From assembly GCF_057098645.1 (NCBI RefSeq), contig NZ_CM169472.1: a stretch of DNA of 64,000 nt, one strand, 5' to 3'. Of the stretch, positions 10,563 through 48,321 are shown in pieces. The notes under the pieces were generated by a model, which searched no databases, was not told the origin of the DNA, and saw only the letters and a list, made by a program, of their open reading frames with translations. Within the stretch, counting starts at the first letter, position 1, and each line of letters starts with the position of its first letter. The position numbers and the translations under genes are program-made.

Positions 10563-11321
<759 letters not shown>

Positions 11322-13466: not shown

Positions 13467-13543
13467 GGAGCGGTAGTTCAGTCGGTTAGAATACCTGCCT
13501 GTCACGCAGGGGGTCGCGGGTTCGAGTCCCGTCCGTTCCGCCA
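13467..13543 (+). tRNA. aspV: tRNA-Asp (GTC)
   Basis: Identical 77-nt tRNA-Asp sequence to the rrn-distal copy. Confidence 0.96.
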
Positions 13544-13572
13544 AATTTACCTCATGAAAATGAGGTTCAGAG

Positions 13573-13605
13573 AACCGCAAGATTTTTAATTTTGCGGTTT
13601 TTTGC
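13573..13605 (+). terminator. intrinsic terminator after aspV
   Basis: Hairpin aaccgcaagatttttaattttgcggtt followed by a T-run. Confidence 0.65.
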
Positions 13606-13873
13606 ATTTAAATCCCGCTATTTCTTCGGTCTATGATTTTGTTATGCTGTAAATGTGTTAATCACATATGGTAGACCATATCATTAATATTTAATCATAC
13701 TATCGAATCATTCAATTTAAATATATTTGCATGTTATGATTTTCATTTTTCTATTGATTTAATGAATTTATATTTGCTGTTATTTTTGTTTGTTCTGATT
13801 CAAGTGGAGTATATAATTAAAAATCGTTAGCTAAACATTACCATGATTATGACAGGCGAGGGAGTGTCCGATT

Positions 13874-14659: not shown

Positions 14660-15000
14660 TAAGGTTTTATACCAGACGTTTTAATGGTACTTAGCAAGAA
14701 AGAGCATTTTCTTTTCTATTTATACTCTGGTTCAAGTCTGCTAATTAATTTTACATATATATTTTTTTAGGAGTAGTAAAAAACTTTACTAAAGTTATTT
14801 ATTGTTCTCTCAACATATAAGCTGTAGTTCGAGTTTTCGGTTGAACTGTCAAAAATACATCATACACATCTATAAAACAGCAGGTACGGTTAATTAAGAA
14901 TTTTTATTCGTGATTAACCGTACTTCATCATTTTATTTTATAATGTTAAATTGCCTTTTTAAAATATAACAATAATGCAGATGAAAAACTCCCAGGTAAC

Positions 15001-15480
15001 TTAGAAAATCCGTTCACTCCAAAGGCTGTACGCACTGGTTCCGGCGACGCTGTGCTCCCAGTTGATACTCTCATAGGTAAATGACACAGACTCTTCCGGC
15101 TGTCCTGGGCTGTCGTTAATGGTATGGGGAACGGTAAGGCCAATGTTTGAGATCCGGGCGTTAGTCAGTTTCACCTTGTAGTACGGTTCATTAACACCAA
15201 AGCGGTTGGTGCGATAGAATACAAAATCACAGGTCAGACATTCATTCTCCGAAATGGCCTTGCCCAGCAGGGGGGAAGATTTATCCACCGGTTTCGTGAT
15301 GGTCAGCTCCTGGTGGTTGACATTCTGCGCCCGGCTCAGACCATGGGACAGTGACGTCACCATGATCTGATCCTGATGTGCAATCTGGGCTTTGTTACCG
15401 ATGGACGGCATTGACGAGCATCCGGATGAAATCAGCCCCTGAAGTTCTCCGTTCAGTGTCAGATAGACGGGATTTGCCAT
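15001..15480 (-). CDS. hcp: Hcp family type VI secretion tube protein (orphan)
   Basis: 159-aa product from MANPVYLTLNG... with Hcp-like motifs; aaggag RBS upstream of the ATG at 15480; the ORF track extends it upstream without protein-like sequence. Confidence 0.75.
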   Translation of the reverse strand: MANPVYLTLNGELQGLISSGCSSMPSIGNKAQIAHQDQIMVTSLSHGLSRAQNVNHQELTITKPVDKSSPLLGKAISENECLTCDFVFYRTNRFGVNEPYYKVKLTNARISNIGLTVPHTINDSPGQPEESVSFTYESINWEHSVAGTSAYSLWSERIF

Positions 15481-15718
15481 TGTTATTCTCCTTAAACTCA
15501 ATGAGTCGGAAGGACTGGCACGGTGCTGTTGTCCGTTGCCATATCCTGTCCGGTATTTTTCAGCAACAGCCAGCGGCTTAACAGCCCATCCAGCCGTTGG
15601 TTGATCTCTTTTGCTAGCGCCTGTGTGTCCTGATTCTGCGTGCGGGTCTCCTGTGATCTTACCCAGCAATAGTGGACACGCGGCTAAGTGAGTAAACTCT
15701 CAGTCAGAGGTGACTCAC

Positions 15719-16018
15719 ATGACAAAAACAGTATCAACCAGTAAAAAACCCCGTAAACAGCATTCGCCTGAATTTCGCAGTGAAGCCCTGAAGCTTGCTG
15801 AACGCATCGGTGTTACTGCCGCAGCCCGTGAACTCAGCCTGTATGAATCACAGCTCTACAACTGGCGCAGTAAACAGCAAAATCAGCAGACGTCTTCTGA
15901 ACGTGAACTGGAGATGTCTACCGAGATTGCACGTCTCAAACGCCAGCTGGCAGAACGGGATGAAGAGCTGGCTATCCTCCAAAAGGCCGCGACATACTTC
16001 GCGAAGCGCCTGAAATGA
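15719..16018 (+). CDS. insE: IS3 OrfA (InsE) transposase N-terminal HTH part
   Basis: [32 protein letters not shown]... Confidence 0.9.
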
Positions 16019-16881
16019 AGTATGTCTTTATTGAAAAACATCAGGCTGAGTTCAGCATCAAAGCAATGTGCCGCGTGCTCCGGGTGGCCCGCAGCGGCTG
16101 GTATACGTGGTGTCAGCGGCGGACAAGGATAAGCACGCGTCAGCAGTTCCGCCAACACTGCGACAGCGTTGTCCTCGCGGCTTTTACCCGGTCAAAACAG
16201 CGTTACGGTGCCCCACGCCTGACGGATGAACTGCGTGCTCAGGGTTACCCCTTTAACGTAAAAACCGTGGCGGCAAGCCTGCGCCGTCAGGGACTGAGGG
16301 CAAAGGCCTCCCGGAAGTTCAGCCCGGTCAGCTACCGCGCACACGGCCTGCCTGTGTCAGAAAATCTGTTGGAGCAGGATTTTTACGCCAGTGGCCCGAA
16401 CCAGAAGTGGGCAGGAGACATCACGTACTTACGTACAGATGAAGGCTGGCTGTATCTGGCAGTGGTCATTGACCTGTGGTCACGTGCCGTTATTGGCTGG
16501 TCAATGTCGCCACGCATGACGGCGCAACTGGCCTGCGATGCCCTGCAGATGGCGCTGTGGCGGCGTAAGAGGCCCCGGAACGTTATCGTTCACACGGACC
16601 GTGGAGGCCAGTACTGTTCAGCAGATTATCAGGCGCAACTGAAGCGGCATAATCTGCGTGGAAGTATGAGCGCAAAAGGTTGCTGCTACGATAATGCCTG
16701 CGTGGAAAGCTTCTTTCATTCGCTGAAAGTGGAATGTATCCATGGAGAACACTTTATCAGCCGGGAAATAATGCGGGCAACGGTGTTTAATTATATCGAA
16801 TGTGATTACAATCGGTGGCGGCGGCACAGTTGGTGTGGCGGCCTCAGTCCGGAACAATTTGAAAACAAGAACCTCGCTTAG
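16015..16881 (+). CDS. insF: IS3 OrfB (InsF) transposase catalytic DDE part
   Basis: 288-aa ORF in -1 frame relative to insE with integrase-core motifs. Confidence 0.9.
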
Positions 16882-16949
16882 GCCTGTGTCCATATTACGT
16901 GGGTAGGATCAATACCCCGACTCTCCCCGTCCTTAAACACAACCCCCAC

Positions 16950-17720
16950 TCACCACAACCTAAACTCATCCGCATCCCGCCATGCCGGAAACTTTTCTCT
17001 ATATTCCCGCAATGCCATCATCGACAGCTCCGCATCAATGCGCGTTGCCTGATGCGCGTCGGCAGTAGCGATAATCTCGCCCTGTGGATTAATCACCCGG
17101 CTGTCACCGCGATAATGGCAGCCGTTGCCATCGCTGCCGACGCGATTACATCCCGCCACATACGCCTGATTCTCAATCGCGCGGGCCGTCAGCAATGCCT
17201 GCCAGTGCAGAGAGCGCGGAGCAGGCCAGTTGGCGACGTACAGGGCGAGGTCGTAATCGTTGAGATTGCGCGACCACACCGGAAAACGTAAGTCGTAGCA
17301 CACCAGCGGCAAAATACGCCAGCCGCGCCATTCCACAATCACTCGCTCATTGCCCGCTTTATAATGCAGATGCTCATCTGCCATTCGGAACCGATGACGC
17401 TTGTCATAAAAATGTACCGTGCCGCCCGGCTCAACCAGCAAAAAGCGGTTAACCGAACCAGACTCCGTTTGTAATGCAACACTGCCTGCAATCAGCGCAT
17501 TGCACTGCTGCGCTTTAGCTGTCATCCAGTTCACTACGTCATCTTGCGCTAGCGACGAAGCTGCCGCTTCCATGGCAAAGCCGCTGGTAAACATCTCCGG
17601 TAGAACGATCACATCGCGCCCGGTAATACCTTCCAGTTGACGATCAAAATGACGCAGGTTGGCAGGACCATCCATCCACACCAGTGGTTGCTGCAAAAGC
17701 GTAATCTTCAAACCAGGCAC
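16950..17720 (-). CDS. yafV: C-N hydrolase (omega-amidase family)
   Basis: Nitrilase-superfamily ORF; probable GTG start (MPGLKITLLQQ) with aaggag RBS. Confidence 0.85.
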   Translation of the reverse strand: MPGLKITLLQQPLVWMDGPANLRHFDRQLEGITGRDVIVLPEMFTSGFAMEAAASSLAQDDVVNWMTAKAQQCNALIAGSVALQTESGSVNRFLLVEPGGTVHFYDKRHRFRMADEHLHYKAGNERVIVEWRGWRILPLVCYDLRFPVWSRNLNDYDLALYVANWPAPRSLHWQALLTARAIENQAYVAGCNRVGSDGNGCHYRGDSRVINPQGEIIATADAHQATRIDAELSMMALREYREKFPAWRDADEFRLW

Positions 17721-17873
17721 GGTGTACAACTCCTTTATGCGAAGGGTTTTATAACTTTAACACCTTATCAGGCAGTTGCCTTAGCGCAGAATAAATTGAT
17801 AACAAATGCTGATATTGGAAATATCTGATTTGCAAATTATCGTGTTATCGCCAGGCTTTAGGAGGTTAATTAC

Positions 17874-18347
17874 ATGGGCAGGATAAGCTCGGGAGGAATG
17901 ATGTTTAAGGCAATAACGACAGTCGCCGCACTGCTCATCGCCACCAGTGCAATGGCGCAGGATGATTTAACCATTAGCAGCCTTGCAAAGGGCGAAACCA
18001 CCAAAGCTGCATTTAATCAGATGGTGCAAGGGCATAAGCTGCCTGCCTGGGTGATGAAAGGCGGTACTTATACCCCTGCACAAACCGTGACATTGGGAGA
18101 TGAGACGTATCAGGTGATGAGCGCGTGCAAACCGCATGACTGTGGCTCGCAACGTATCGCTGTGATGTGGTCCGAGAAATCTAATCAGATGACGGGGCTG
18201 TTCTCGACTATTGATGAGAAAACGTCGCAAGAGAAACTCACCTGGTTGAATGTGAACGATGCGCTTTCGATTGATGGTAAAACGGTGCTGTTCGCGGCGT
18301 TGACCGGCAGCCTGGAAAACCATCCGGATGGCTTTAATTTTAAATAA
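17874..18347 (+). CDS. ivy: inhibitor of vertebrate lysozyme (periplasmic)
   Basis: 157-aa ORF with signal peptide and CKPHDC motif. Confidence 0.9.
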   Translation: MGRISSGGMMFKAITTVAALLIATSAMAQDDLTISSLAKGETTKAAFNQMVQGHKLPAWVMKGGTYTPAQTVTLGDETYQVMSACKPHDCGSQRIAVMWSEKSNQMTGLFSTIDEKTSQEKLTWLNVNDALSIDGKTVLFAALTGSLENHPDGFNFK

Positions 18348-18360
18348 TTAGCGGATAAAG

Positions 18361-18383
18361 AAACGGAGCCTTTCGGCTCCGTT
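18361..18383. terminator. bidirectional terminator between ivy and fadE
   Basis: Hairpin aaacggagcctttcggctccgtt. Confidence 0.6.
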
Positions 18384-18389
18384 ATTCAA

Positions 18390-20834
18390 TTACGCGGCTT
18401 CAACTTTCCGCACTTTCTCCGGCAACTTTACCGGCTTCGTCGCCAGCTCTTCCGGATCAAAGTCATCAACGTTAATACTGCGCAGACGGCTTTCTTCAGC
18501 TTTCACCAGAATAGCGGCTTCATCTTTATCAATCAGCCCCTTCGCCAGCGCGTTGTGCGCCAGTTCATCCAGACGGGTAAACGGCAGATTTTTACCCAGC
18601 TCTTTACAGATCCGCTGATGAATTGGGTCGGCGGCAATCACATCCACCAGCGCCTCTTCCAGTAAACCAACCGGGTTATGCTCGCTCGGCGTCAGGTACT
18701 GACCGCGACCAATACGTGAACGGGTGGCGTTCGGCACTTGTAAAATCTTCGCCACCTTATGATCCAGCTTGTCAGACGGTGCTAGATAATGACGTCCGGT
18801 CGGGAAGATCACCACATTCAGCAGCCCGGCAACCACGCGGTTCGGGAAGTTTTGCAGTAAATCGTCCATCGCCTGTTCTGCCTGATACAGCGCATCCTGT
18901 ACGCCCCAGTGCACCAGCGGCAGGTCGGCTTCATTACGGCCTTCGTCGTCATAACGCTTCAGAACGGCAGAGGCGAGGTAAAGCTGGCTTAAAATATCCC
19001 CCAGACGTGCCGAGATACGCTCACGACGTTTCAGGCTGCCACCCAGCACCGCCATCGAGACATCAGAAAGCAGGGCGAGGTTGGCGCTAAGGCGGTTAAG
19101 ATGCTGATAGTAGCGTTTAGTGGCATCGCCGGTTGGCGTGCTGCTGGTTAAACCGCGCGTCAGGCCCAGCCAGAAGCTGCGAACTTTGTTGCTACCGACG
19201 TGACCGATATGTTTGAACAGCAGTTTATCGAACGCGTTAACGTCATTGTTCTTCGCCGCTTCCATCTCTTCCAGCACGTACGGATGGCAACGAATCGCTC
19301 CTTGTCCGAAGATCATCATGCTGCGGGTCAGAATGTTAGCCCCTTCAACGGTGATGGCAATCGGTGCGCCCTGGTAAGCACGCGCCAGGAAGTTGCTTTG
19401 CCCGAGCATAATGCCTTTGCCACCAGTGATATCCATCGCATCAATAATCGACTGCTGCCCGCGGTGAGTACAGTGATACTTAACGATAGCCGACAGCACG
19501 GCAGGTTTTTCGCCGAGCATAATGCCGTAGGTAATCAGCGATGCCGCAGCATCCATCACGTAGGCATTACCGGCAATACGCGCCAGCGGCTCTTCAATCC
19601 CTTCCATCTTACCGATAGAGATTTTGAACTGACGGCGAATGTGAGCATACGCGCCGGTTGCCAGCGCTACCGATTTCACGCCGCCGGTTGAGTTGGAAGG
19701 CAGTGTGATGCCGCGGCCTACCGAGAGGCACTCCACCAGCATCCGCCAGCCTTGCCCGGCCATTTTCGGCCCGCCGATGATGTAATCGATCGGCACGAAG
19801 ACATCTTTACCGCGCGTCGGTCCGTTCTGGAACGGTACGTTCAGCGGGAAGTGGCGACGACCAATTTCCACGCCCGGCGTGGTGGTTGGGATCAGCGCAC
19901 AGGTAATACCTAAATCTTCTGCACCGCCGAGTAATTTTTCCGGGTCGGAGAGTTTAAACGCCAGCCCAAGCACGGTCGCAATCGGTGCCAGCGTAATGTA
20001 GCGTTTGTTCCAGGTCAGTCGCATGCCCAGCACCTGCTGGCCCTGCCATTCACCCATGCAGACAATCCCGGTATCCGGAATCGCGCCCGCATCGGAACCC
20101 GCTTCCGGGCTGGTTAGTGCAAAGCAAGGGATTTCCTGACCACGCGCCAGACGCGGCAGATAGTGATCTTTCTGCTCGTCAGTGCCGTAATGTTGCAGCA
20201 GCTCGCCCGGGCCTAATGAGTTCGGCACGCCGACGGTAATCGCCAGGATCCCGCTCACGCCGGAGAGTTTTTGCAGCACGCGAGACTGGGCATAAGCTGA
20301 GAACTCCAGTCCGCCGTACTCTTTTTTGATAATCATCGCGAAGAAGCGATGCTCTTTAAGGTACGCCCACAACTCCGGCGGCAGATCCGCCAGCTCATGA
20401 GTAATCTGGAAATCATTCGCCATCCGGCAGGCTTCTTCTACCGGGCCGTCGAGAAACGCTTGCTCTTCTGCGGTCAGGCGCGGCTGCGGATAGTTATGCA
20501 GCTTTTTCCAGTCCGGCTTGCCCTGGAACAAGTCGCCCTCCCACCAGGTGGTGCCCGCATCAATCGCTTCTTTCTCAGTGCGCGACATCGGCGGCATCAC
20601 CTTACGGAAACCGCGAAATACCGGCGCGGAAATCATCGACTTACGCATAGGCGCAAAGTTAAATGGCACGAGGATAATGGCCAGAGGCACCAGTACCCAC
20701 GCCGACCACAGACCAGCAACGCCGAGGGCGGCTGTCCAGGCGAGCAAAATCAGACTGCTGATAAATAAGCTCACGCGGTGATAGAACAACGCGCCGAGCA
20801 GGACAACCGTAGCGAGAATACTCAAAATCATCAT
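18390..20834 (-). CDS. fadE: acyl-CoA dehydrogenase FadE
   Basis: 814-aa product from internal start [11 protein letters not shown]... of an 840-aa ORF; acyl-CoA dehydrogenase domains. Confidence 0.92.
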
Positions 20835-36814: not shown

Positions 36815-37870
36815 TTAAAATTGATAGGTCATGCCAACCGCGACAATATCATCATTATTGATATTCAGCTTATTATCGCTATTCAGTTGGTTTATTTTAT
36901 AATCAACAAATGCTGACATATTTTTGTTGAAATAATACGTGGCACCGACATCAATATAATTGACCAGATCTTCATCACCGATGCCCTCAATATCTTTCCC
37001 TTTCGATAAGACATAACCCAGCGACGGACGCAGACCAAAGTCAAACTGGTATTGAGCAACCGCTTCAAAGTTCTGTGTCTTATTAGCAAAACCACCAGAT
37101 ATTGGCGTCATTTTACGTGTTTCAGAATAAAAAGTTGCCAGATAAATATTATTGGCATCGTATTTCAGACCTGTTGCCCACGCTTCTGCACGCTTACCTG
37201 TGCCACGGCTTTGCATGTTCTGCTCGTTGGTGCGATCAGAGTTGGTATAGGCACCACTGATAGCGAAATCGCTGCCGCCAAAGTCATATGTCAATGACGT
37301 GCCGAAGCCATCGCCGTTTTGCTTTTTCACATCGCGGTTTTCGTTTTTCCCTTGATATTGCAGGGTTAAGTTCAGACCATCGATAACGCCGAAGAAGTCG
37401 GTGTTCCGATACGTCGCCAGACCGCTGGCGCGTTTGGTCATAAAGTTGTCGGTCTGCGCCGAGGAGTCGCCACCAAATTCCGGGAACATATCGGTCCAGG
37501 CCTCCACGTCATACAGCGCGCCCAGGTTACGACCATAGTCGAAAGAACCCAAATCTTTATATTTCAATCCGGCGAAAGCGAGACGCGTTTTTTGCTGTGC
37601 AGTATCACTCTCCGCTTTATTCCCGGCAAACTCCGCTTCCCAACGACCATAACCAGTCAGTTGATCGTTAATTTGTGTTTCGCCTTTAAAACCAAAACGG
37701 ATATAACTCTGGTCGCCATCTTTACTGTCATTATCACTCATATAATGCATGGCTTTAACTTTGCCATAGATATCCAGTTTATTACCGTCTTTGTTATATA
37801 TTTCTGCGGCCTGTACGGATGCAGATGCCACAATGCCCATCACCACTAATGCCAGAGTGCTCTTTTTCAT
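36815..37870 (-). CDS. phoE: outer membrane phosphoporin PhoE
   Basis: 351-aa porin from internal start [33 protein letters not shown]...; C-terminal ...MTYQF. Confidence 0.93.
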
Positions 37871-40640: not shown

Positions 40641-40716
40641 GCCGATATAGCTCAGTTGGTAGAGCAGCGCATTCGTAATGCGAAGGTCGTAGGTTCGACT
40701 CCTATTATCGGCACCA
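40641..40716 (+). tRNA. thrW: tRNA-Thr (CGT anticodon)
   Basis: gccgatatagctcagttggtagagcagcgcattcgtaatgcgaaggtcgtaggttcgactcctattatcggcacca, 76 nt. Confidence 0.95.
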
Positions 40717-40843
40717 TTTAAATCAAGTAGTTACTCCATATTTAAATACACCACCTTTTCCTGCTGTGCCGTATTTGTGCCATTGTAACCCTGGCAATTA
40801 ATCAAAATACTGTTCTGACATCAGGCAATACAGGTGCAGACAT

Positions 40844-41743
40844 TTAAGCCAATTGCTGCCGCCATTCCTTGACGTGGTCAATCAGGGCGCGGAGCTTTGG
40901 TGCAATATTGCGACGCTGTGGGAAATACAGATAGAAGCCCGGAAATTGTGGAAGAAAGTCATCAAGCAGAGATACAAGCTTACCGCTTTCAATATATGGC
41001 CTGAAAGTTTCCTGAGTGGCAATTGTTATTCCTCCGCCGGCAAGAGCCAGCCTCAACATCAGACGCAGATCATTAGTCGTAATCTGTGGTTCAATCGCAA
41101 GGTCGAAAGCTCTCCCGTTTTCTTCAAATGGCCAGCGATAAGGCGCAACATCCGGGGATTGACGCCAGCCGATACACTTATGATTCACAAGTTCACGCGG
41201 ATGAACAGGTGTGCTGTTGGCTGCGAGATAGGAGGGAGAGGCAACGACCATTTCACGCTGCCTGCCGGTAAGGGGCACAGCAATCATGTCTTTTTCAATG
41301 ACCTCTCCGAGCCTTACGCCAGCATCGTAACCTGCGGCCACGATATCGAATTCCTCATCCGTTACAACAATATCAAGCGTAACGGCTGGATTGGCAGCTG
41401 CAAACGAAGCGATTAGCGGACCTGAAAGAAATTCTTCTGCTATCGACGTCACCGCGATTCTGAGAAGTCCGCGTGGCACATGGTCAGAAACCATCTCTTC
41501 GAACGCTGCCTCAATACCGGATAAAGGTAATGACAGCGATTTATGCAGCCGTTCTCCCGCTTCTGTCAAATTAACTGAGCGCGTGGTCCGCATTACAAGC
41601 ATTGTCCCGAATGCATCTTCAAGGCGTCTTATTCCCTGACTGACCGCTGAACGGGTAACGCCCAGCCGTGCGGCGGCTTTACTAAAATTACTCTCTTCTG
41701 CTACCGCGATAAAAATGGGTAAAAGATTAAGATCGATTTTCAT
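40844..41743 (-). CDS. LysR-family transcriptional regulator
   Basis: 299-aa ORF with N-terminal HTH; divergent from the SDR gene. Confidence 0.8.
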   Translation of the reverse strand: MKIDLNLLPIFIAVAEESNFSKAAARLGVTRSAVSQGIRRLEDAFGTMLVMRTTRSVNLTEAGERLHKSLSLPLSGIEAAFEEMVSDHVPRGLLRIAVTSIAEEFLSGPLIASFAAANPAVTLDIVVTDEEFDIVAAGYDAGVRLGEVIEKDMIAVPLTGRQREMVVASPSYLAANSTPVHPRELVNHKCIGWRQSPDVAPYRWPFEENGRAFDLAIEPQITTNDLRLMLRLALAGGGITIATQETFRPYIESGKLVSLLDDFLPQFPGFYLYFPQRRNIAPKLRALIDHVKEWRQQLA

Positions 41744-41841
41744 TGTTTAATGCTGCTAACCACTGAGTACATTGAAAGCAGGATACTGGAACCAATCATA
41801 AAGTTCTATTCTCTCTCCGAACACATTTGAAGGAGAACGTA

Positions 41842-42564
41842 ATGGATAAGGTCATATTAATTACCGGCGCATCAAGTGGTATTGGGGAAGGTATTGCCAG
41901 AGAGCTGGGAACGACAGGTGCAAAGGTTTTACTGGGAGCACGCAGAGTTGAGCGTATCGAAGCCATTGCAACCGAAATCTGCCGCGCAGGAGGAATTGCT
42001 AAAGCGCGGGAGTTGGATGTCACAGACCGACAGTCCATGGCCGATTTCGTGCAAGCAGCGCTGGATAGCTGGGGGCGAGTTGATGTTCTTATCAATAATG
42101 CGGGCGTTATGCCGCTTTCACCGCTTGCAGCAGGAAAACAAGATGAATGGGAGCTCACTATTGACGTGAATATCAAAGGTGTACTGTGGGGAATTGGCGC
42201 TGTACTTCCGGTGATGGAAGCACAGGGTTCCGGTCAGATAATCAATCTTGGTTCTATTGGTGCCCTTTCTGTTGTGCCCACAGGCGCAGTCTATTGTGCA
42301 TCAAAATTTGCAGTACGGGCTATTTCTGATGGCTTACGGCAGGAAAGCTCGAAAATCCGTGTGACCTGCGTAAATCCTGGCGTTGTCGAAAGTGAACTGG
42401 CTTCAACCATTACCCATGTGGAAACCATGAAGGCAATGGACGCCTACCGTTCTGTTGCACTTCAACCTGCGGATATTGCCCGTGCGGTAAGGCATATTAT
42501 TGAATCTCCCGAAAGCGTTGATACAACCGAAATTACCATCAGACCCACTGCATCTGCAAACTGA
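41842..42564 (+). CDS. short-chain dehydrogenase/reductase (SDR) family oxidoreductase
   Basis: TGASSGIG Rossmann motif, NNAG, YxxxK active site (YCASK); ATG at 41842 with aaggag RBS. Confidence 0.85.
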   Translation: MDKVILITGASSGIGEGIARELGTTGAKVLLGARRVERIEAIATEICRAGGIAKARELDVTDRQSMADFVQAALDSWGRVDVLINNAGVMPLSPLAAGKQDEWELTIDVNIKGVLWGIGAVLPVMEAQGSGQIINLGSIGALSVVPTGAVYCASKFAVRAISDGLRQESSKIRVTCVNPGVVESELASTITHVETMKAMDAYRSVALQPADIARAVRHIIESPESVDTTEITIRPTASAN

Positions 42565-42777
42565 AGAATAACTTTTACATTCACGTTTTATTAAATAGAT
42601 CAGAAGGAAGATTTATATATCCCTGTATTTTTCATAGCAAGATGCATTATGTATTGCTCACCCCGAAGGAGATGAAGGTTTAATTACAGAAAGATTATTT
42701 TCACAGGAAGTAAACATGACTCATGTTTAATGCCTTTATATATAAAACTCATTCTCTCAATTGTCAGGAGAATTAGC

Positions 42778-43008
42778 ATGAATACTATCTGTTCTTTAAT
42801 TGTTGTGGTTGCACTGTCTTTATTATCATTCAGTAGCGTCGCCAAAACGATTACTGCCGTCGGTTCAACCATTGACAGCACTGAAAAAGAAATTTCTTTA
42901 CAGGCAGAAAAACAAGGGAAATCATATAAAATTCTGGGCGCGTTTTTTAAGAACAGAGTTTATATGATAGCAAAGTTAACACCAGTCAGTAAAAATGATG
43001 CTTCATAA
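42778..43008 (+). CDS. small secreted protein, YdgH/BhsA/McbA-like (DUF1471)
   Basis: 76-aa product with signal peptide and short C-terminal domain ending ...YMIAKL; caggag RBS. Confidence 0.55.
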   Translation: MNTICSLIVVVALSLLSFSSVAKTITAVGSTIDSTEKEISLQAEKQGKSYKILGAFFKNRVYMIAKLTPVSKNDAS

Positions 43009-43204
43009 GGCTCATGGTATAATTTTAAGACATGATCAAGAAGCACGTCTATTGATTCAAAATTATCATTATGATGGCAATGGAATGCCCGACAAATGAC
43101 GCTATACCCACCTTCTGTACCAGTCGTTCTGCTAATTCTACCGATGCTTCGGTCTGGAGTAGTAAAGTAATATTGGACACAGTTTTATTTTCTCTCTTTT
43201 TCGA

Positions 43205-43450
43205 GGGCTGTATATCAACAGGAAGAATACATCCCTAAGCGGTTAATGCTGGCGTAATCAATAGACCAGCATTAATCACAGATGATTACCAATCAGACAG
43301 AAATGGTTAAATCGTCGAATTCATATTTAATACGTTTTCTTATGCCGCTGAACAGCTTGAAAAGGATGCATATTTTAAATATCAGTGAAATGAACAGTTT
43401 ATTGCCGTTATTAATAGAAATGGAGGGATAAATACGCGTATTCTACTGTT
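43205..43450. repeat. paralogous copy of the ykgMO-flanking sequence (copy A), containing a hairpin and a short 3' remnant of an rpmJ-like gene
   Basis: Aligns with 61858-61965 and 62686-62768; 43335-43367 resembles the 3' end of ykgO. Confidence 0.7.
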
Positions 43451-43709
43451 GCAACAAAAACAACGATATTGATCGGTTTTCATAATGAAGTAACCTGACA
43501 GATATGAAAATGTTGATTGAGGCTAAATGCCCGGATTAAGGTTGTCGAGGGGAGCCAGGTGGTTTTTTCTTTTGGATGATCTCCATTGCTGGATAGTCCC
43601 CTTGTACAGATAAGTCTGATCTTTCTCGCTCAAAGCAGACCCTGGAATTGAACGCAGAGGGACTACCTGACACAATTTTGCACAGTGAAGAGTCGGTCGT
43701 TATTAACGT

Positions 43710-44594
43710 TCAGATTTTCAATGTATCAATGACCATCCGCAGGGCGGGGGAGACGTTGCGATGAGGGTAATAGAGAAACAATCCCTCCATTCGCAGGCTG
43801 TAACGCTGCAACACCCTGATAAGCTTACCGTGTTCTAAATCATCCGCGACCAGTTCAACAGGAACATAGGCCAATCCGAGGCCCAGCCGGGCGGCTTCTG
43901 CTTCCATATAGCTGTCGGATAGGGCCCATTGCCCTTCAGGGCGATGAGTGATTTTTTTATCATCCTGATTGAGTTCCCACTGGTATACGCTGCCGTCGGC
44001 AAACTGATAGGCGATACAGGGATGCGCCTTTAAATCCGCCGGAGTTTGCGGAAAACCATAGCGACGAAAATGTTCCGGAGTCCCCACAATTGCCATCTCC
44101 ATATCGGGCGTGATGCGTACCGCGACCATACCCTGGCCGACTTCAGGCCCCAGGCGGACACCTGCATCGAATCTTTCCTCGATGATATCGACGAACCGGC
44201 TCTCATTTATCAGTTCAAGCCGGATATCAGGATATCGCTGTTTAAATACCGCCAGCTTTGGCAGCAGGCATTTATCAATTGCGTGCTGGCTGGCATTGAT
44301 ACGCACCGTGCCGGAGGGCGTCTCTCGATAGTGCGCCAGTGTGGCAAGCCCAAGATCTAACATTTCAAATCCAGATGCCGTCTTCTGGTAGAGCTGCTCG
44401 CCTGCTTGTGTCAGCGACAGTTTACGCGTGGTGCGCACTAGCAGCTGGACACCCAGCCTTTCTTCAAGCTCGCGAACAGAACGGCTGACTCCTGACTGCG
44501 CAAGACCCAGCCGTTTAGCCGCTGCGGTAAAGCTGCCTTCCCGCACCACCTGCATAAACAGGTACAGCTCGTTGTAGTTCTCCCTTTTCGCCAT
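43710..44594 (-). CDS. LysR-family transcriptional regulator
   Basis: 294-aa ORF with N-terminal HTH; divergent from the hydrolase-MFS pair. Confidence 0.8.
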   Translation of the reverse strand: MAKRENYNELYLFMQVVREGSFTAAAKRLGLAQSGVSRSVRELEERLGVQLLVRTTRKLSLTQAGEQLYQKTASGFEMLDLGLATLAHYRETPSGTVRINASQHAIDKCLLPKLAVFKQRYPDIRLELINESRFVDIIEERFDAGVRLGPEVGQGMVAVRITPDMEMAIVGTPEHFRRYGFPQTPADLKAHPCIAYQFADGSVYQWELNQDDKKITHRPEGQWALSDSYMEAEAARLGLGLAYVPVELVADDLEHGKLIRVLQRYSLRMEGLFLYYPHRNVSPALRMVIDTLKI

Positions 44595-44780
44595 TGAAAC
44601 ATCCCCCCTTCATGCCGGCAATCTTCGCATTAATTTATAACAATATGGTATTAATCTTAGCATTAATCGCCCCCTAATCAGCACTAATTCTGCTCACTAT
44701 AATGACCCCATCAAAGTAAAGCACCGCAGCGTTGTCCGTCGGAAACCTGTATCTCTCTGTTGTTTTTTATGGGGATTTTT

Positions 44781-45917
44781 ATGAAAGCCTTCACCCGAAT
44801 GCTAAAAACCGCGATGCCGGCCATGCTGCTTTTCGCATCATTAAGTGGAGTCACGACAATGAGTTATGCTGATCCAACCAATCCTAATGCCCCTGTGTCC
44901 ATGACAGATAAATGGGATAAAACGTTCGCCGAGAGCCAGAAAGTCGATCACCGTAAAGTCTCGTTCCCGAACCGATATGGCATCACCTTAGTGGGCGATC
45001 TTTACCTGCCTAAAGACCGTGGCGATCGCAAGCTGGCGGCGATTGCGGTCAGTGGGCCATTTGGCGCGGTGAAAGAGCAATCCAGCGGCTTGTATGCGCA
45101 GACGCTGGCGGAACGAGGGTTTGTTACCCTGGCGTTCGATCCTTCTTACACCGGGGAAAGCGGCGGCTATCCGCGAAACGTCGCCTCACCGGATATCAAC
45201 ACTGAAGATTTCAGCGCGGCGGTGGATTTCTTAGGGCTGCAAAAAGAGGTAGATCGCAACCGTATCGGGCTGCTCGGTATTTGTGGCTGGGGCGGCATGG
45301 CGCTGAACGACGCGGCGATGGATACCCGCGTTAAAGCGGTTGCTACCAGCGTGATGTATGACATGAGCCGGGCGATGGGCCATGGTGTGGGGGATGGCGA
45401 AGACCGTTATTCTACCGCCGACCGTCGTGCTGTTCTGCAATATCTGAATGAACAGCGCTGGAAGGATGCGCAGAGCGGAACGTTCGCTCACGGTGGTCAT
45501 GATATTAATGTCGATAGCAACGGCAAGGTCAGTGCGGGCGAGCGCATTCTGCCAGAAACGCTGCCGGCAAATCCTCATCCGGTACTGAAAGAGTTCTTTG
45601 ACTACTATCGCATGCCGCGCGGCTTCCACGAACGTTCCGTTAACTCTACCGGGGCGTGGACGGCAACGATGCCGCTGTCATTTATGAATATGCCGCTGCT
45701 GAGCTACGCCAGTGAAATCACCATCCCGACGCTGATTGTGACCGGTGAGAAAGCGCATTCACGCTATTTTGCTGAAGATGCTTACAAGGCGGTTGGCAGT
45801 AACGACAAAGAGCTGGTGGTGGTACCAGGGGCAAATCACGTGGACCTGTACGATAACGTGGCCGGAAAAATACCTTTCGCGAAGTTCGAACAATTTTTCC
45901 AGACCAAACTGAAATAA
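44781..45917 (+). CDS. secreted alpha/beta-fold hydrolase (dienelactone-hydrolase-like, Cys nucleophile GxCxG)
   Basis: Signal peptide; nucleophile elbow ICGWGG; C-terminal HVDLYD. Confidence 0.7.
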   Translation: MKAFTRMLKTAMPAMLLFASLSGVTTMSYADPTNPNAPVSMTDKWDKTFAESQKVDHRKVSFPNRYGITLVGDLYLPKDRGDRKLAAIAVSGPFGAVKEQSSGLYAQTLAERGFVTLAFDPSYTGESGGYPRNVASPDINTEDFSAAVDFLGLQKEVDRNRIGLLGICGWGGMALNDAAMDTRVKAVATSVMYDMSRAMGHGVGDGEDRYSTADRRAVLQYLNEQRWKDAQSGTFAHGGHDINVDSNGKVSAGERILPETLPANPHPVLKEFFDYYRMPRGFHERSVNSTGAWTATMPLSFMNMPLLSYASEITIPTLIVTGEKAHSRYFAEDAYKAVGSNDKELVVVPGANHVDLYDNVAGKIPFAKFEQFFQTKLK

Positions 45918-45937
45918 AACCTCTCCTGAATTGATGC

Positions 45938-45969
45938 AAAGCCACCGGTCTATGGCCGGTGGCTTTTAT
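45938..45969 (+). terminator. intrinsic terminator after the hydrolase gene
   Basis: Hairpin agccaccggtctatggccggtggct followed by tttt. Confidence 0.6.
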
Positions 45970-45992
45970 CCTGATCTTTGTGAAATTTCACT

Positions 45993-47186
45993 ATGTCGAC
46001 ACTAAGCCAAACACTATCACCTCATCATCAGCGCGCATACTGGGGCGGTATTTTTGCCATGACCCTGTGCGTGTTTGTGCTGATTGCTTCTGAATTTATG
46101 CCCGTCAGCCTGCTCACGCCGATTACCCGCGATTTAGGCGTGACGGAGGGGCTGGCAGGGCAGGGGATTGCTATCTCCGGCGCGCTGGCGGTTCTGACCA
46201 GCCTGACGCTTTCAACGCTAGCTGGAAAGATGAATCGTAAGTTCCTGCTGCTGGGGATGACGGTTCTGATGGCCGTATCGGGGCTTATTATTGCGCTGGC
46301 TACCAGTTATCTGATGTATATGGTCGGTCGTGCGATGATTGGTGTGGCCATTGGCGGATTCTGGTCGATGTCAGCGGCAACGGCGATTCGTCTGGTGCCG
46401 CAGCATCAGGTCACGCGTGCGCTGGCGATTTTCAACGCCGGTAATGCGCTGGCAACGGTCGTGGCCGCACCGCTGGGAAGCTATCTGGGGGCTACGGTCG
46501 GATGGCGAGGCGCTTTCTTGTGCCTGGTGCCTATCGCGGTTGTCGCCTTTATCTGGCAGTGTATTAGTCTGCCCAGCATGGATGCGAATAAAAGCCACGC
46601 GTCATTTGGCGCGGTATTCCGCTTATTTAGCCGCCGCATGGTCGTGGTCGGCATGATAGCTTGTGGCCTGTTTTTCATGGGGCAGTTTGCGCTATTCACC
46701 TATGTGCGCCCGTTTCTGGAGTCGGTGACACGGGTTAATTCCTTAGGCTTGTCGTTGATTTTGCTGATTATCGGCGTGGCCGGTTTTATTGGCACGCTGG
46801 TTGTTTCGACATTTCTCAACAGAAAATTCTACCCCACGCTGATGGCCATACCCGGACTGATGGCCGTCATTGCCATCGGTCTGATGCTTACCGGGCATCA
46901 CGTCTGGACGGTCTCGCTGCTGTTAGGACTCTGGGGCATGCTGGCCACCGCCGCGCCAACCGGATGGTGGACATGGATTGCGCGTACGTTGCCTGACAAC
47001 GCCGAAGCCGGAGGCGGGCTCATGGTCGCGGTGATTCAGCTCTCAATCGCCCTTGGATCAACGGCAGGAGGCATCGTGTTTGACCGCCTTGGCTGGCAGA
47101 GTACGTTTGCCATGAGTAGTGTGCTGCTCCTTTGCGCGGGCGTACTGACCTTTGTTACCGCACGCCAGAAGGCCGGTGCGCTTTAG
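45993..47186 (+). CDS. MFS transporter
   Basis: 397-aa ORF, hydrophobic with a 12-helix-like pattern. Confidence 0.8.
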   Translation: MSTLSQTLSPHHQRAYWGGIFAMTLCVFVLIASEFMPVSLLTPITRDLGVTEGLAGQGIAISGALAVLTSLTLSTLAGKMNRKFLLLGMTVLMAVSGLIIALATSYLMYMVGRAMIGVAIGGFWSMSAATAIRLVPQHQVTRALAIFNAGNALATVVAAPLGSYLGATVGWRGAFLCLVPIAVVAFIWQCISLPSMDANKSHASFGAVFRLFSRRMVVVGMIACGLFFMGQFALFTYVRPFLESVTRVNSLGLSLILLIIGVAGFIGTLVVSTFLNRKFYPTLMAIPGLMAVIAIGLMLTGHHVWTVSLLLGLWGMLATAAPTGWWTWIARTLPDNAEAGGGLMVAVIQLSIALGSTAGGIVFDRLGWQSTFAMSSVLLLCAGVLTFVTARQKAGAL

Positions 47187-47364
47187 TCCGGCGAGGGCGC
47201 GCGTTGCTGAATAAGTTACACAAGGCGATGAGCAACCACTATGGGTAGGGCGCTCTTTTAAACGATTTAGGTGATTTTCTAAAACGGCTACTGCAGATTT
47301 TTCTCTTAATTTATGGTATTTCCCCCGCAGGTGAGAAAGCGCTTTCCACGCCCGGCCGCAAGGA

Positions 47365-48321
47365 TCAGGACGACGGGGGCAGGCATGAATCCTCCTCCTG
47401 ATGGAGACGTACAGAGGCGACTTCTGCCAGCACGGAGAGTGCCAGAGTATGCGCATCCCGGGCTTTGGGGAATATCCCGACGGGTGCCCGGATTTGCGCT
47501 GTCTCCTCCCTGGACCATCCCAGCTCGTGGAGCTTTTGCAGACGTAAAGTGTGGGTTCGATAGCTGCCCAATGCGCCGAGATAAAAGGGTTTTGCCTCTC
47601 GCGCGGCCTGCAACACTGGCAGCTCCCGGTTGAGATCATGGCACAGCAAAATGACCGCCGTATCGGTATCGATCTGAGCGCTGGCTGAGGCCGGAAAAAG
47701 ATCGAAGATATGGCTGTCATAGCCTGTGGCTGCTGCAAGACTCGCGGTTGCCTGCGCCTCAAGAGAACGTCCGTAAATCATCAGCCTGACGCATGGCCTG
47801 AACCCCACCTCAAAGCCATTGAGATTCCAGCCCGTCCGGGTTTGCGTGGGCAGGCACACCAGCGATTGTGCTTGCGGATCGTAGCGCAGACCCGCCGGTT
47901 TTCTCTGTTCCAGGCGGTTCAGCACGGCGAGCAGAGGCTGTGCCGAGCGTAGTTTATGGAGCGTCAGCGTGATCCCACCGCCGCAGGGCAGAACGATGTC
48001 AAACCACGGCGAACCTTCGCCATAGCGAATTTCGCGATCGCGGCCTGAGCCCATCATCTCCAGCGCTTCAAAAGCGGCAGCGGCCTCCACGCAGCCGCCA
48101 GAGACAAAACCGCAGTAACGACCATCTTCGCGAACCACCATCTGCGCCCCGAGCGGGCGCGCCGCGCCGCCGTGTATCTCCATCAGCGTCACCAGCACCG
48201 CTCCTTTACCGGACATTAGCGCCTCTACGGCGAAGCGCAGAATGGTCCGGTGGTCATCGGTGAGAAACGCCTGCTCTGGCTTATGCCAGTGTTCGTCTTT
48301 ATCAAAAAGCGGGTATGACAT
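47365..48321 (-). CDS. paoD: XdhC-like molybdenum cofactor insertion chaperone PaoD
   Basis: 318-aa ORF with XdhC/CoxI signature; directly downstream of paoC. Confidence 0.85.
   Translation of the reverse strand: MSYPLFDKDEHWHKPEQAFLTDDHRTILRFAVEALMSGKGAVLVTLMEIHGGAARPLGAQMVVREDGRYCGFVSGGCVEAAAAFEALEMMGSGRDREIRYGEGSPWFDIVLPCGGGITLTLHKLRSAQPLLAVLNRLEQRKPAGLRYDPQAQSLVCLPTQTRTGWNLNGFEVGFRPCVRLMIYGRSLEAQATASLAAATGYDSHIFDLFPASASAQIDTDTAVILLCHDLNRELPVLQAAREAKPFYLGALGSYRTHTLRLQKLHELGWSREETAQIRAPVGIFPKARDAHTLALSVLAEVASVRLHQEEDSCLPPSS

What the first reader, a model, noticed from the sequence alone, without database searches (positions are those of the whole stretch)
40717..47364. thrW carries a short metabolic island instead of a prophage
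Immediately after tRNA-Thr there is no integrase or phage gene. Instead there are two divergent LysR-controlled units: LysR with an SDR oxidoreductase, and LysR with a secreted Cys-type alpha/beta hydrolase and an MFS transporter, separated by a small DUF1471 protein and the repeat described above. From memory, K-12 has the CP4-6 prophage at thrW, so this looks like the unoccupied or alternative state of that integration hotspot. The hydrolase-transporter pair suggests uptake and hydrolysis of an unknown ester or lactone.
Basis: partly seen in the sequence, partly recalled or inferred. Interest (0 to 1): 0.45.

Follow-up and report, generated by a model that had tools for sequence, protein, structure and literature searches.

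The report
Old deletion-prone gene block beside thrW
The 6.6 kb between tRNA-Thr (thrW) and paoD is an old, ordinary stretch of accessory E. coli chromosome made of two small regulator-plus-enzyme cassettes; it does not replace a prophage, and K-12 lacks it because of a separate 6.1-kb deletion that left the yagP fragment.

Summary
They are LysR1<->SDR, a small exported ORF, a ykgR-like repeat fragment, then LysR2<->exported Cys alpha/beta-hydrolase and an MFS. There is no intact integrase. The window is E. coli O145:H28 RM12761, and its thrW att site is empty.

The segment is not an alternative occupant of that site.
- It lies distal to attB (40665-40734).
- No thrW repeat bounds it.
- About 90% of genomes carrying it also have something inserted at thrW. 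In O157:H7 EDL933 this is a P4-like satellite.

K-12 lacks it because of a 6,128-bp deletion (41183-47310) at a TTATG microhomology. The same junction occurs in a prophage-free strain and in 2684 of 5426 complete genomes. K-12 yagP is the in-frame chimera that this deletion made.

The segment genes differ between lineages about as much as the flanking core genes do, so the block is old at this locus. Both edges carry relics: 17 codons of an SfX/HK542-type integrase next to thrW, and 26 codons of a mocA-like gene next to paoD. Both cassettes occur elsewhere on plasmids, islands and P2-like phages.

Function is unknown. The MFS resembles exporters, so detoxification is likelier than uptake. Interest is low.

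The parts
40641..40716 (+). thrW, tRNA-Thr(CGT)
   Evidence: ARAGORN; Rfam tRNA, 71.8 bits.
40665..40734 (+). attB region used by thrW-integrating elements. This stretch is duplicated at both ends of CP4-6 in K-12. It is unoccupied in this window.
   Evidence: K-12 left flank matches the window up to 40734 and the right flank from 40665. The HK542 attP matches it.
40731..40785 (-). Relic of the last 17 codons plus stop of an SfX/HK542-type tyrosine integrase. It sits in the position and orientation of a prophage attL junction.
   Evidence: 69 nt after thrW are 83% identical to the HK542/SfX attP-int 3' end, E=4e-9 against the phage collection. Translation reads NGTNTAQQEKVVYLNME*, against HK542 Int ...NGTNTAQEENVVYLNAR*. 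The same sequence is next to yagP in K-12 and in NCTC10973.
40844..41743 (-). LysR1, a full-length LysR-family regulator. Its C-terminal 339 nt are what survives as K-12 yagP.
   Evidence: ORF and RefSeq annotation. NCBIfam LysR models match end to end. HTH_1 and LysR_substrate domains are recorded on a 99%-identical cluster.
41842..42564 (+). Classical SDR oxidoreductase, divergent from LysR1 across a 98-bp gap. Together with LysR1 it forms cassette A (40844-42572).
   Evidence: RefSeq and NCBIfam SDR hits. TGASSGIG, NNAG and YCASK motifs can be read directly. The same pair with the same 98-bp gap, at 85.5% nt identity, occurs in Enterobacter cloacae and Pantoea ananatis in unrelated neighbourhoods.
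42730..43008 (+). Small ORF of 92 aa (76 aa from Met17) with an N-terminal hydrophobic leader. It is only weakly DUF1471/BhsA-like.
   Evidence: RefSeq calls it a hypothetical protein. Pfam E=0.076 and NCBIfam 22 bits. A 77%-identical copy follows a LysR1-SDR copy in another E. coli island.
43363..43479 (-). Fragment duplicated from the ykgR locus (3' end of ykgR plus downstream sequence), inside an AT-rich spacer (42573-43624, 34-40% GC).
   Evidence: Self-BLAST: 43363-43447 matches 62685-62769 at 94%. RefSeq annotates a partial ykgR. There is a 91.5% match to the true ykgR in other genomes. Composition.
43625..47203 (.). Cassette B, the LysR2<->hydrolase-MFS module. It is a discrete unit shared with other genera and with mobile elements.
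   Evidence: A 3,580-bp block is 91.6% identical to Kluyvera genomosp. 1 with exactly these ends. The block is 75-79% identical in Enterobacter, Hafnia and Pseudescherichia. It occurs on Klebsiella, Pantoea, Kosakonia and Salmonella plasmids, in a CP4-like island and in P2-like Yersinia phages.
43710..44594 (-). LysR2, a LysR-family regulator divergent from the hydrolase.
   Evidence: A LysR gene is a neighbour of the hydrolase in 37 of 80 loci.
44781..45917 (+). Exported alpha/beta-hydrolase with a Cys nucleophile (PA2218/YcjY family). The likely start is ATG 44781, preceded by GGGGA.
   Evidence: PDB 2hdw (PA2218) E=1e-124 and YcjY 5xb6 E=7e-44. GICGWGG and ANHVDLY motifs. Signal peptide read from the sequence and conserved. 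Only weak Pfam hits.
45933..45970 (+). Strong hairpin followed by UUUUAU, between the hydrolase and the MFS. It is terminator-like.
   Evidence: RNA fold gives -25.3 kcal/mol with z=-5.0. The simple terminator scan did not list it.
45993..47186 (+). 12-TM MFS transporter of the NepI/DHA1-like exporter type.
   Evidence: NCBIfam: NepI 291 bits (cut-off 584), sugar efflux PRK03545 175 bits, Cmx/CmrA 135 bits. An MFS is a neighbour of the hydrolase in 21 of 80 loci across alpha-, beta- and gamma-proteobacteria.
47306..47386 (-). Relic (26 codons, then a stop) of a MocA-like NTP_transf_3 gene that overlaps the paoD stop codon.
   Evidence: The closest non-E. coli pao operons (L100, L102; 88% nt) have an intact 184-aa gene here. 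Homology ends at about 47300-47310. Translation.
41183..47310 (.). The stretch deleted in K-12-type genomes (6,128 bp), between two TTATG copies at 41178-41182 and 47306-47310.
   Evidence: K-12 and NCTC10973 match the window up to 41182 and resume at 47311. The junction is present in 2684 of 5426 genomes. K-12 YagP is MocA-like N-terminus plus LysR1 C-terminus.
47365..48321 (-). paoD, the right-hand core flank.

Best explanation
The thrW-paoD interval of this O145:H28 strain is an old accessory stretch of E. coli chromosome. It is inherited with its flanks but is often deleted. It is not cargo sitting in the thrW attachment site.

Structure. The interval is a mosaic:
- Cassette A, 40844-42572: a LysR regulator divergent from an SDR oxidoreductase, followed by a small exported ORF.
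- About 1 kb of AT-rich filler holding a ykgR fragment.
- Cassette B, 43625-47203: a LysR regulator divergent from a Sec-exported alpha/beta-hydrolase with a Cys nucleophile, then a hairpin, then an exporter-type MFS.

History. Elements that target thrW insert upstream of all this, at 40665-40734, and come and go independently of the block. The lineage leading to K-12 lost 41183-47310 in a single illegitimate-recombination event at a 5-bp microhomology. That event fused the first 26 codons of a mocA-like relic in frame to the last 111 codons of LysR1. The fusion product is the ORF called yagP.

Function (inferred, not shown). Each LysR protein binds its divergent promoter region and switches on the neighbouring gene(s) in response to a small-molecule inducer. 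The hydrolase acts in the periplasm on an ester, lactone or thioester, using Cys-His-Asp. The MFS expels a substrate or a product. This would make it a small xenobiotic-detoxification module.

Origin (open). The relics at both edges and the mobility of both cassettes suggest the block entered an E. coli ancestor by horizontal transfer, possibly as the remains of an ancient thrW-integrated element.
For: Structure and history (shown):
- K-12 versus window breakpoints and the TTATG microhomology.
- The same junction in prophage-free NCTC10973 and in 2684 of 5426 genomes.
- The chimeric YagP sequence.
- All four occupancy-by-deletion combinations.
- 38 genomes with thrW contiguous to intact LysR1, against 380 carrying LysR1-SDR. 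947 genomes have an empty thrW followed directly by the LysR1 3' end.
- No att repeat elsewhere in the window.
- Segment genes are 97.5-99.3% identical between lineages, against 97.2-99.0% for proBA and paoDC.
- Other partial-deletion variants exist: 042, JCH767 and PRO_A-1551.

Mosaic origin (shown):
- Cassette ends are defined by the Kluyvera, Enterobacter and Pantoea matches.
- Copies occur on plasmids, islands and phages.
- Integrase relic and mocA-like relic.

Function (partly shown):
- Close homology to the solved alpha/beta fold of PA2218.
- Cys elbow in 71 of 74 homologues, and signal, lipobox or Tat-like leaders in 54 of 74.
- Exporter-type MFS hits.
- Recurrent LysR and MFS neighbours.
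- Recurrent neighbours of carbonyl/xenobiotic-metabolism type: aldo-keto reductase, cupin, acetyltransferase, and an SDR 49% identical to this window's SDR.
Against: - It did not return E. albertii, E. fergusonii or E. marmotae, so the state in sister species is not established.
- The outgroup pao loci (L100, L102) are not identified to species.
- Phylogroup assignments (full form in E and D strains, K-12 junction in A and B1) rest on general knowledge of named strains, not on a tree built here.
- The older truncation point of the mocA-like gene (about 47300) lies only 5-10 nt from the right end of the K-12 deletion. A simple deletion model leaves that to chance or to a hotspot.
- No substrate, inducer or expression data exist. 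The literature searches found nothing on PA2218 or YcjY function.
- The signal peptide was judged by eye, not with a predictor.
Confidence: 0.82

Rival explanations
1. The 6.6 kb is an integrase-less metabolic island carried at the thrW integration hotspot as the alternative to a prophage such as CP4-6, so each genome has one or the other.
For: The block directly follows thrW and is absent from K-12, which has CP4-6 there. It is present in a minority of genomes. Its composition is mosaic.
Against: - The block co-occurs with thrW-integrated elements in EDL933 and CEC08123. By count, co-occurrence applies to about 342 of 380 carriers.
- Prophage-free NCTC10973 lacks the block.
- K-12's loss has its own junction inside LysR1, unrelated to the CP4-6 ends.
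- No att repeat is present.
Confidence: 0.03
2. A claim about origin. The whole interval 40786-47300 is what remains of one ancient element that integrated at thrW in an E. coli ancestor. Its integrase end is the 17-codon relic, and its distal end was lost in a deletion that ran into the host mocA-like gene. On this view the block is an island in the historical sense, now fixed and decaying.
For: - The integrase relic sits in exactly the attL position and orientation.
- The mocA-like gene is truncated where the block ends.
- Both cassettes are seen as cargo of islands, plasmids and P2-like phages.
- There is AT-rich filler.
- The outgroup pao flanks lack the block.
Against: - No attR copy or other phage gene is left.
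- The relic is of lambdoid SfX/HK542 type, and the phage search found no such phage carrying these cassettes.
- The two cassettes have different closest relatives (Kluyvera at 91.6% against Enterobacter/Pantoea at 85.5%) and different GC content, which fits stepwise accretion equally well.
- The relic could come from an unrelated earlier prophage.
Confidence: 0.3
3. Reverse polarity. The K-12-type junction is the older state, and the full form arose later. Donor DNA would have been re-inserted by homology-facilitated illegitimate recombination, anchored in the LysR1 3' remnant and joined a few nucleotides away in the mocA-like relic.
For: It would explain why the right end of the block (about 47300) and the K-12 junction (47306-47310) nearly coincide.
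Against: - It needs a donor that already had the full arrangement.
- The full form keeps about 4 more nucleotides of outgroup-like mocA sequence than K-12 does.
- The block has diverged between E-type and D-type strains as much as the core flanks have.
- The K-12 junction frequency of 49.5% matches the derived A/B1-type strains seen in the listings.
Confidence: 0.06
4. A functional rival, from the reader. Cassette B is a catabolic unit in which the MFS imports an ester or lactone and the hydrolase cleaves it for use as a nutrient.
For: Regulator-enzyme-transporter cassettes are often catabolic. The MFS is linked to the hydrolase in many proteobacteria. MFS transport direction cannot be read from sequence.
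Against: - The hydrolase carries an export signal in most lineages, so hydrolysis would come before uptake rather than after it.
- The MFS's best family matches are all efflux pumps.
- No downstream catabolic genes are present in the cassette.
- A terminator-like hairpin separates the hydrolase from the MFS.
Confidence: 0.2

Closest known systems
K-12 yagP (b0282), the 'LysR substrate-binding domain' fragment next to paoD
   Same: yagP is 97.9% identical over 339 nt to the 3' end of LysR1 in this window.
   Different: In this window the gene is intact at 299 aa and paired with its SDR. In K-12 it is a deletion-made chimera whose first 26 codons come from a mocA-like relic.
CP4-6 cryptic prophage, and the P4-like satellite at thrW in O157:H7
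   Same: They use the same tRNA gene, and their att region is present in this window at 40665-40734.
   Different: Neither is present in this window. They insert upstream of the block and are independent of it.
Pseudomonas aeruginosa PA2218 (PDB 2hdw) and E. coli YcjY (PDB 5xb6)
   Same: The hydrolase aligns over nearly its whole length with PA2218 (E=1e-124) and more distantly with YcjY (E=7e-44). All three have Cys in the nucleophile elbow.
   Different: Neither relative has a described substrate in the literature searched. PA2218 shows a lipobox-like LVGC, whereas the E. coli protein has a plain signal peptide. YcjY has no recognisable leader in the aligned part.
Dienelactone hydrolase family (Cys-nucleophile alpha/beta hydrolases)
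   Same: It uses Cys in place of Ser at the nucleophile elbow. There is a weak Pfam DLH hit around the elbow (E=0.0017).
   Different: Similarity is limited to about 50 residues. Classical dienelactone hydrolases are about 235 residues long and cytoplasmic (general knowledge). No chlorocatechol-pathway genes are nearby.
NepI / SotB / Cmx-type MFS exporters
   Same: These are the best full-length NCBIfam matches (291, 175 and 135 bits).
   Different: All scores are far below the equivalog cut-offs (584, 401, 400), so this is a different, uncharacterised subfamily.
tRNA-linked genomic islands of E. coli (for example PAI-536-thrW and PAI-APECO1-thrW)
   Same: The block is adjacent to thrW, a recognised integration hotspot (PMC7545054), and its presence varies among strains.
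   Different: It has no integrase, no flanking direct repeat and no virulence genes. It lies outside the att site and co-exists with true thrW islands.

Membership tests
tRNA-integrated genomic island / prophage | Integrase gene next to the tRNA | tested here: not met
   No integrase ORF is present. Only a 17-codon C-terminal relic remains at 40731-40785.
tRNA-integrated genomic island / prophage | Direct repeat of the tRNA 3' end at the distal boundary | tested here: not met
   The 24-nt and 15-nt thrW 3' patterns, searched with up to 3 and 2 mismatches, occur only in thrW itself within 64 kb. No long repeat was found either.
tRNA-integrated genomic island / prophage | Occupies the att site, so excludes other elements using the same site | tested here: not met
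   The block co-occurs with a P4-like element in EDL933 and CEC08123. Only 38 of 380 carriers have an empty thrW.
tRNA-integrated genomic island / prophage | Variable presence and foreign-looking composition | tested here: inconclusive
   Presence is variable (7-17% of genomes). GC ranges from 34% to 58% across the block. However, divergence equals that of the core flanks.
CP4-6 prophage | CP4-6 genes between thrW and yagP/paoD | tested here: not met
   In the window, thrW is followed after 127 nt by the LysR1 stop codon. The K-12 map is available for comparison.
LysR-type regulator with a divergent target gene | N-terminal HTH plus LysR substrate-binding domain, full length | tested here: met
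   NCBIfam LysR models match residues 1-294 and 6-293. PF00126 and PF03466 are recorded on a 99%-identical cluster.
LysR-type regulator with a divergent target gene | Divergent arrangement conserved with the target gene | tested here: met
   LysR1-SDR keeps the same 98-bp gap in Enterobacter and Pantoea. A LysR2-like gene lies immediately divergent from the hydrolase in 14 of 80 loci, and any LysR neighbour in 37 of 80.
LysR-type regulator with a divergent target gene | Regulator binding site and inducer-dependent activation | not testable with these tools
   ATTAAT repeats are visible at 44630-44680. No binding or expression data exist.
Classical SDR oxidoreductase | TGxxxGxG cofactor motif, NNAG, and catalytic Ser...YxxxK | tested here: met
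   TGASSGIG, NNAG and YCASK are read in the translation. NCBIfam SDR models reach up to 188 bits.
Alpha/beta-hydrolase with Cys nucleophile (PA2218/YcjY group) | Alpha/beta fold | tested here: met
   E=1e-124 to the solved PA2218 structure over residues 21-382.
Alpha/beta-hydrolase with Cys nucleophile (PA2218/YcjY group) | Small-x-Cys-x-small-small elbow and a conserved His motif | tested here: met
   GICGWGG-type elbow in 71 of 74 homologues. The strict ANHVDLY-type pattern is found in 39 of 74, including the window protein.
Alpha/beta-hydrolase with Cys nucleophile (PA2218/YcjY group) | Catalysis through Cys; substrate identity | not testable with these tools
   No biochemical data were found.
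Sec-exported protein | Basic n-region, hydrophobic core, small-x-small cleavage site | tested here: met
   MKAFTRMLK / TAMPAMLLFASLSGV / TTMSYA|D, read and conserved in Enterobacterales. Lipobox or twin-arginine leaders occur in other lineages. This was judged by inspection, not with a predictor.
NepI purine ribonucleoside efflux pump (NCBIfam NF007578) | Score above the curated equivalog cut-off | tested here: not met
   291.5 bits against a cut-off of 584. It is an MFS of the same broad exporter group, but it is not NepI.
DUF1471 / YdgH-BhsA-McbA family | Significant match to PF07338 or to the BhsA model | tested here: inconclusive
   Pfam E=0.076 over model positions 8-40 of 55. NCBIfam BhsA gives 22 bits against a cut-off of 90. 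A properly annotated DUF1471 gene does sit inside the same cassette on a Salmonella plasmid.

The most novel reading that the evidence does not exclude
The exported Cys-nucleophile hydrolase of cassette B belongs to a family that is unusually well conserved across very different organisms. Identity is 51-66% across Proteobacteria, Bacteroidota, Firmicutes, Gastranaerophilales, Elusimicrobia and even a Methanobacterium MAG. The family travels on plasmids, CP4-like islands and P2-like phages, and no substrate has been described. It could be a widespread periplasmic enzyme that inactivates a common environmental or gut electrophile, ester or lactone. That would be a new and broadly relevant detoxification or signal-quenching activity.
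Probability: 0.25. Interest if true: 0.45.

Novelty: new member of a known kind. Interest (0 to 1): 0.15.

Why it matters
It matters little for biology at large.

It corrects a tempting misreading, that genes next to a tRNA hotspot must be island cargo or an alternative to a prophage. Here the att site and the variable block are separate, and the reference strain K-12 is the derived, deleted state.

As a by-product it explains the odd K-12 gene model yagP. That ORF is an in-frame fusion of a mocA-like relic and a LysR fragment.

It also flags an uncharacterised, mobile LysR-hydrolase-MFS cassette. The cassette is present in O157:H7, O55:H7 and O145:H28 and in about 17% of complete E. coli genomes. 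It would be a reasonable target for substrate screening.

Tried and rejected
- Searching for a thrW 3'-end repeat marking an att site found nothing in 64 kb. A generic repeat search gave only chance-sized matches.
- Rfam on the block found only the tRNA.
- The simple promoter/terminator scan found no more sites than in shuffled sequence, and it missed the hairpin that folding later confirmed.
- Searching the phage collection for phage remnants found none inside the block. It returned only the attP/int relic next to thrW, host flanks carried in a phi458 record, and P2-like Yersinia phages carrying cassette B.
It returned no sister Escherichia species, so it could not settle the ancestral state.
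- The PaoD homologue search gave two outgroup loci of uncertain species. The partial E. marmotae PaoD entry was too poor to identify them.
- Literature searches for YcjY, PA2218, yagP/thrW and CP-933H/thrW gave no functional or structural description of this block.
- Fetching 50 kb of CFT073, to see the state in a B2 strain, landed inside an unrelated island and was uninformative.
- Assigning the MFS to NepI and the small ORF to DUF1471 was rejected or left open because the scores are too low.

Full report
WHAT IS THERE

The window is 100% identical to E. coli O145:H28 RM12761. tRNA-Thr(CGT), thrW, lies at 40641-40716, and paoD at 47365-48321 on the minus strand. The finding's coordinates are therefore exactly the interval between the two.

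- LysR1 (40844-41743, -), divergent from an SDR (41842-42564, +).
- A 92-aa ORF (42730-43008, +).
- LysR2 (43710-44594, -), divergent from an alpha/beta hydrolase and an MFS (45993-47186, +).

NCBIfam confirms two full-length LysR regulators, a classical SDR and an MFS. The DUF1471 label for the small ORF is weak. The 'repeat' is a duplicated piece of the true ykgR locus: 43363-43447 matches 62685-62769 at 94%. Rfam finds only the tRNA.

THE HYDROLASE

It is a close relative of the solved but uncharacterised P. aeruginosa PA2218 (2hdw, E=1e-124) and a more distant relative of E. coli YcjY (5xb6). Pfam gives only weak hits.

The nucleophile elbow is GICGWGG. A Cys at that position is kept in 71 of 74 homologues recovered from other genomes.

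If translation starts at ATG 44781, which is preceded by GGGGA, the protein begins with a typical signal peptide ending in SYA|D. That leader is conserved in Enterobacterales. Other lineages have lipobox or twin-arginine leaders instead, and 54 of 74 homologues have some such leader. RefSeq's start at 44859 removes the leader, while homologues in strain A37 and on a Salmonella plasmid are annotated with it. So 'secreted Cys-type hydrolase' is right.

A strong hairpin (-25.3 kcal/mol, z=-5) followed by UUUUAU separates the hydrolase from the MFS.

IS IT AN ISLAND IN THE thrW att SITE?

No. In K-12, CP4-6 lies between thrW and yagP. The left flank of K-12 matches the window through 40734, and the right flank resumes at 40665. 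The att region is therefore 40665-40734, upstream of LysR1.

On the right side, K-12 follows the window only to 41182, inside LysR1, and then jumps to 47311. The two window sequences share TTATG at the breakpoints. This is a 6,128-bp deletion by illegitimate recombination.

NCTC10973 has nothing integrated at thrW and yet has exactly the same junction. A 301-bp probe across the junction is found whole in 2684 of 5426 complete E. coli genomes.

Translating K-12 yagP gives MPAPVVLILAAGRGECFLASGGNTHK followed by CIGWRQSPEV... The second part is the C-terminal 111 residues of LysR1.

An insertion could not rebuild an intact 299-aa regulator paired with its conserved SDR partner. The polarity is therefore full form to K-12 form.

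INDEPENDENCE FROM PROPHAGE OCCUPANCY

O157:H7 EDL933 and strain CEC08123 have an integrase and a P4-like satellite of about 12.5 kb at thrW, followed by the complete block.

Two chimeric probes give numbers. The first joins 361 bp upstream of the att region to 361 bp of the K-12-deleted part of LysR1. It is contiguous in only 38 genomes, mostly O145:H28, whereas 380 genomes carry LysR1-SDR. So about 90% of carriers have something between thrW and LysR1. This was verified directly for two strains and is inferred for the rest. The second probe ends in the LysR1 3' part and is contiguous in 947 genomes. Most genomes with an empty thrW therefore lack the intact block.

No second copy of the thrW 3' end exists in the 64-kb window.

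Other variants occur. 042 and JCH767 have a decayed defence island running into the AT-rich spacer and keep only cassette B. PRO_A-1551 has a 41074-43124 deletion.

HOW OLD IS IT?

Between this strain and O157-type, 042-type and other lineages, the segment genes are 97.5-99.3% identical. That is the same range as proBA and paoDC, at 97.2-99.0%. The block has therefore sat at this locus since before those lineages split.

From general knowledge, the strains with the full form are phylogroup E and 042 is phylogroup D. The K-12 junction appears in A-type and B1-type strains such as K-12 and O104:H4. This fits a loss on the branch leading to A/B1. I did not build a tree.

WHERE DID IT COME FROM?

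The block is a mosaic.

Cassette B (43625-47203) matches Kluyvera genomosp. 1 at 91.6% over 3,580 bp, with ends just outside LysR2 and the MFS. It matches Enterobacter, Hafnia and Pseudescherichia at 75-79%. It also occurs in these mobile settings:
- Klebsiella, Pantoea, Kosakonia and Salmonella plasmids. The Salmonella copy lies beside a Tn3 transposase and has a DUF1471 gene inside it.
- A CP4-like island with Ag43, as a second allele at 78%, in E. coli A37.
- The P2-like Yersinia phages vB_YpM_115 and vB_YpM_117, between a run of unannotated genes upstream and the tail-sheath gene gpFI.

Cassette A (40844-42572) is 85.5% identical to both Enterobacter cloacae and Pantoea ananatis. It keeps the same 98-bp divergent gap but sits in unrelated neighbourhoods. 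An 84% copy, together with a homologue of the small ORF, lies in a CBASS-bearing island of another E. coli strain.

Both edges of the block are relics.
- The 69 nt after thrW are 83% identical to the attP-int 3' end of HK542/SfX-type phages. On the minus strand they read NGTNTAQQEKVVYLNME*, against the HK542 integrase C-terminus NGTNTAQEENVVYLNAR*. This is exactly the geometry of an attL junction. The relic is also present in K-12 and NCTC10973, so it is old.
- At the other edge, the closest non-E. coli pao operons I could find (88% nt) have an intact 184-aa MocA-like gene overlapping the paoD stop. The window keeps only 26 codons of it, and homology stops at about 47300-47310.

So the interval was rearranged in an E. 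coli ancestor. Whether it arrived as one ancient thrW element or by stepwise accretion cannot be decided here.

One oddity remains unexplained. The old truncation point of the mocA-like gene and the right end of the K-12 deletion are only 5-10 nt apart. I considered re-insertion into a K-12-type junction and rate it unlikely.

FUNCTION

Nothing is known experimentally.

Across 80 loci from many phyla, the recurrent neighbours of the hydrolase are:
- a LysR regulator, in 37 loci;
- this type of MFS, in 21 loci, all proteobacterial;
- a 161-aa protein of unknown family, in 20 loci;
- a maltose-type acetyltransferase, in 16 loci;
- a DkgA-like aldo-keto reductase, in 12 loci;
- a cupin, in 11 loci;
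- an SDR that is 49% identical to the window's own SDR, in 6 loci.

The MFS's best matches are exporters, all below the family cut-offs. An exported hydrolase plus an exporter-type pump under a LysR activator looks more like a small detoxification module than like 'uptake and hydrolysis'. This is inference only.

VERDICT

The thrW site in this window is indeed empty. The interpretation as an island carried instead of a prophage is not supported.

The block consists of ordinary, uncharacterised accessory cassettes that are already annotated in RefSeq and shared with O157:H7. Two by-products are modest: the explanation of K-12 yagP as a deletion-made chimera, and the note that cassette B is mobile, including on phages.

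Noticed in passing
L098 (Yersinia phage vB_YpM_115, OR545056.1) 4997-8559; equivalent to window 43710-47186: Two P2-like (Peduovirus) Yersinia phages carry the whole LysR-hydrolase-MFS cassette (74.9% nt). It sits like a moron, between a run of unannotated genes upstream and the tail-sheath gene gpFI.
   Followed up: partly
L006 (K-12 MG1655) 36882-37292; window 47306-47386 and 40844-41182: K-12 yagP (b0282) is an in-frame chimera. It joins 26 codons of a MocA-like relic, whose start overlaps the paoD stop, to the last 111 codons of a LysR gene. The 6,128-bp deletion created it.
   Followed up: yes
Proteins P0121, P0126 and others: Some E. coli genomes have 448-aa 'XdhC family' gene calls that combine the PaoD domains with a LysR substrate-binding domain. 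These are presumably read-through or frameshift fusions of paoD with the yagP chimera.
   Followed up: no
window 47299-47311: The older truncation point of the mocA-like gene and the right breakpoint of the K-12 deletion fall within about 5-10 nt of each other. This could be chance, a recombination hotspot or a more complex history.
   Followed up: partly
window 44760-44860 and 45993-46060: RefSeq start codons for the hydrolase (44859) and the MFS (46059) look too far downstream. The longer forms, starting at 44781 and 45993, include a conserved signal peptide and the first NepI-aligned residues. Homologues elsewhere are annotated with the longer forms.
   Followed up: partly
window 50526-51481: paoB is annotated as frameshifted in RM12761, so the periplasmic aldehyde oxidoreductase PaoABC next to the block may be inactive in this strain.
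   Followed up: no
L090 (E. coli A37, NZ_CP029327.1) 4997-8558: A second, 78%-identical allele of the LysR-hydrolase-MFS cassette sits in a CP4-like island, next to Ag43, a DUF932 protein and a GTPase. About 33 genomes carry a hydrolase copy in the 80-90% identity class that may be this allele.
   Followed up: partly
L088 (Salmonella IncFIB plasmid NZ_CP130617.1) 4001-7774: On this plasmid a properly annotated YdgH/BhsA/McbA-like (DUF1471) gene lies between the LysR gene and the hydrolase, beside a Tn3-family transposase. Small exported DUF1471-type proteins may be a recurrent companion of the cassette.
   Followed up: no
L005 (NZ_CM136149.1) 4938-5049: At the thrW position this genome is annotated with a 112-nt 'tRNA-Ser' next to a site-specific integrase and conjugation genes. 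This is probably an annotation artefact at the junction of an integrated conjugative element.
   Followed up: no
L100 (GCA_902850365.2) 10939-18427: In the closest outgroup pao locus, paoD is followed by an intact MocA-like gene, an unrelated LysR gene and a 1,779-aa ToxA_N/PLDMTX-type toxin gene flanked by IS elements.
   Followed up: no
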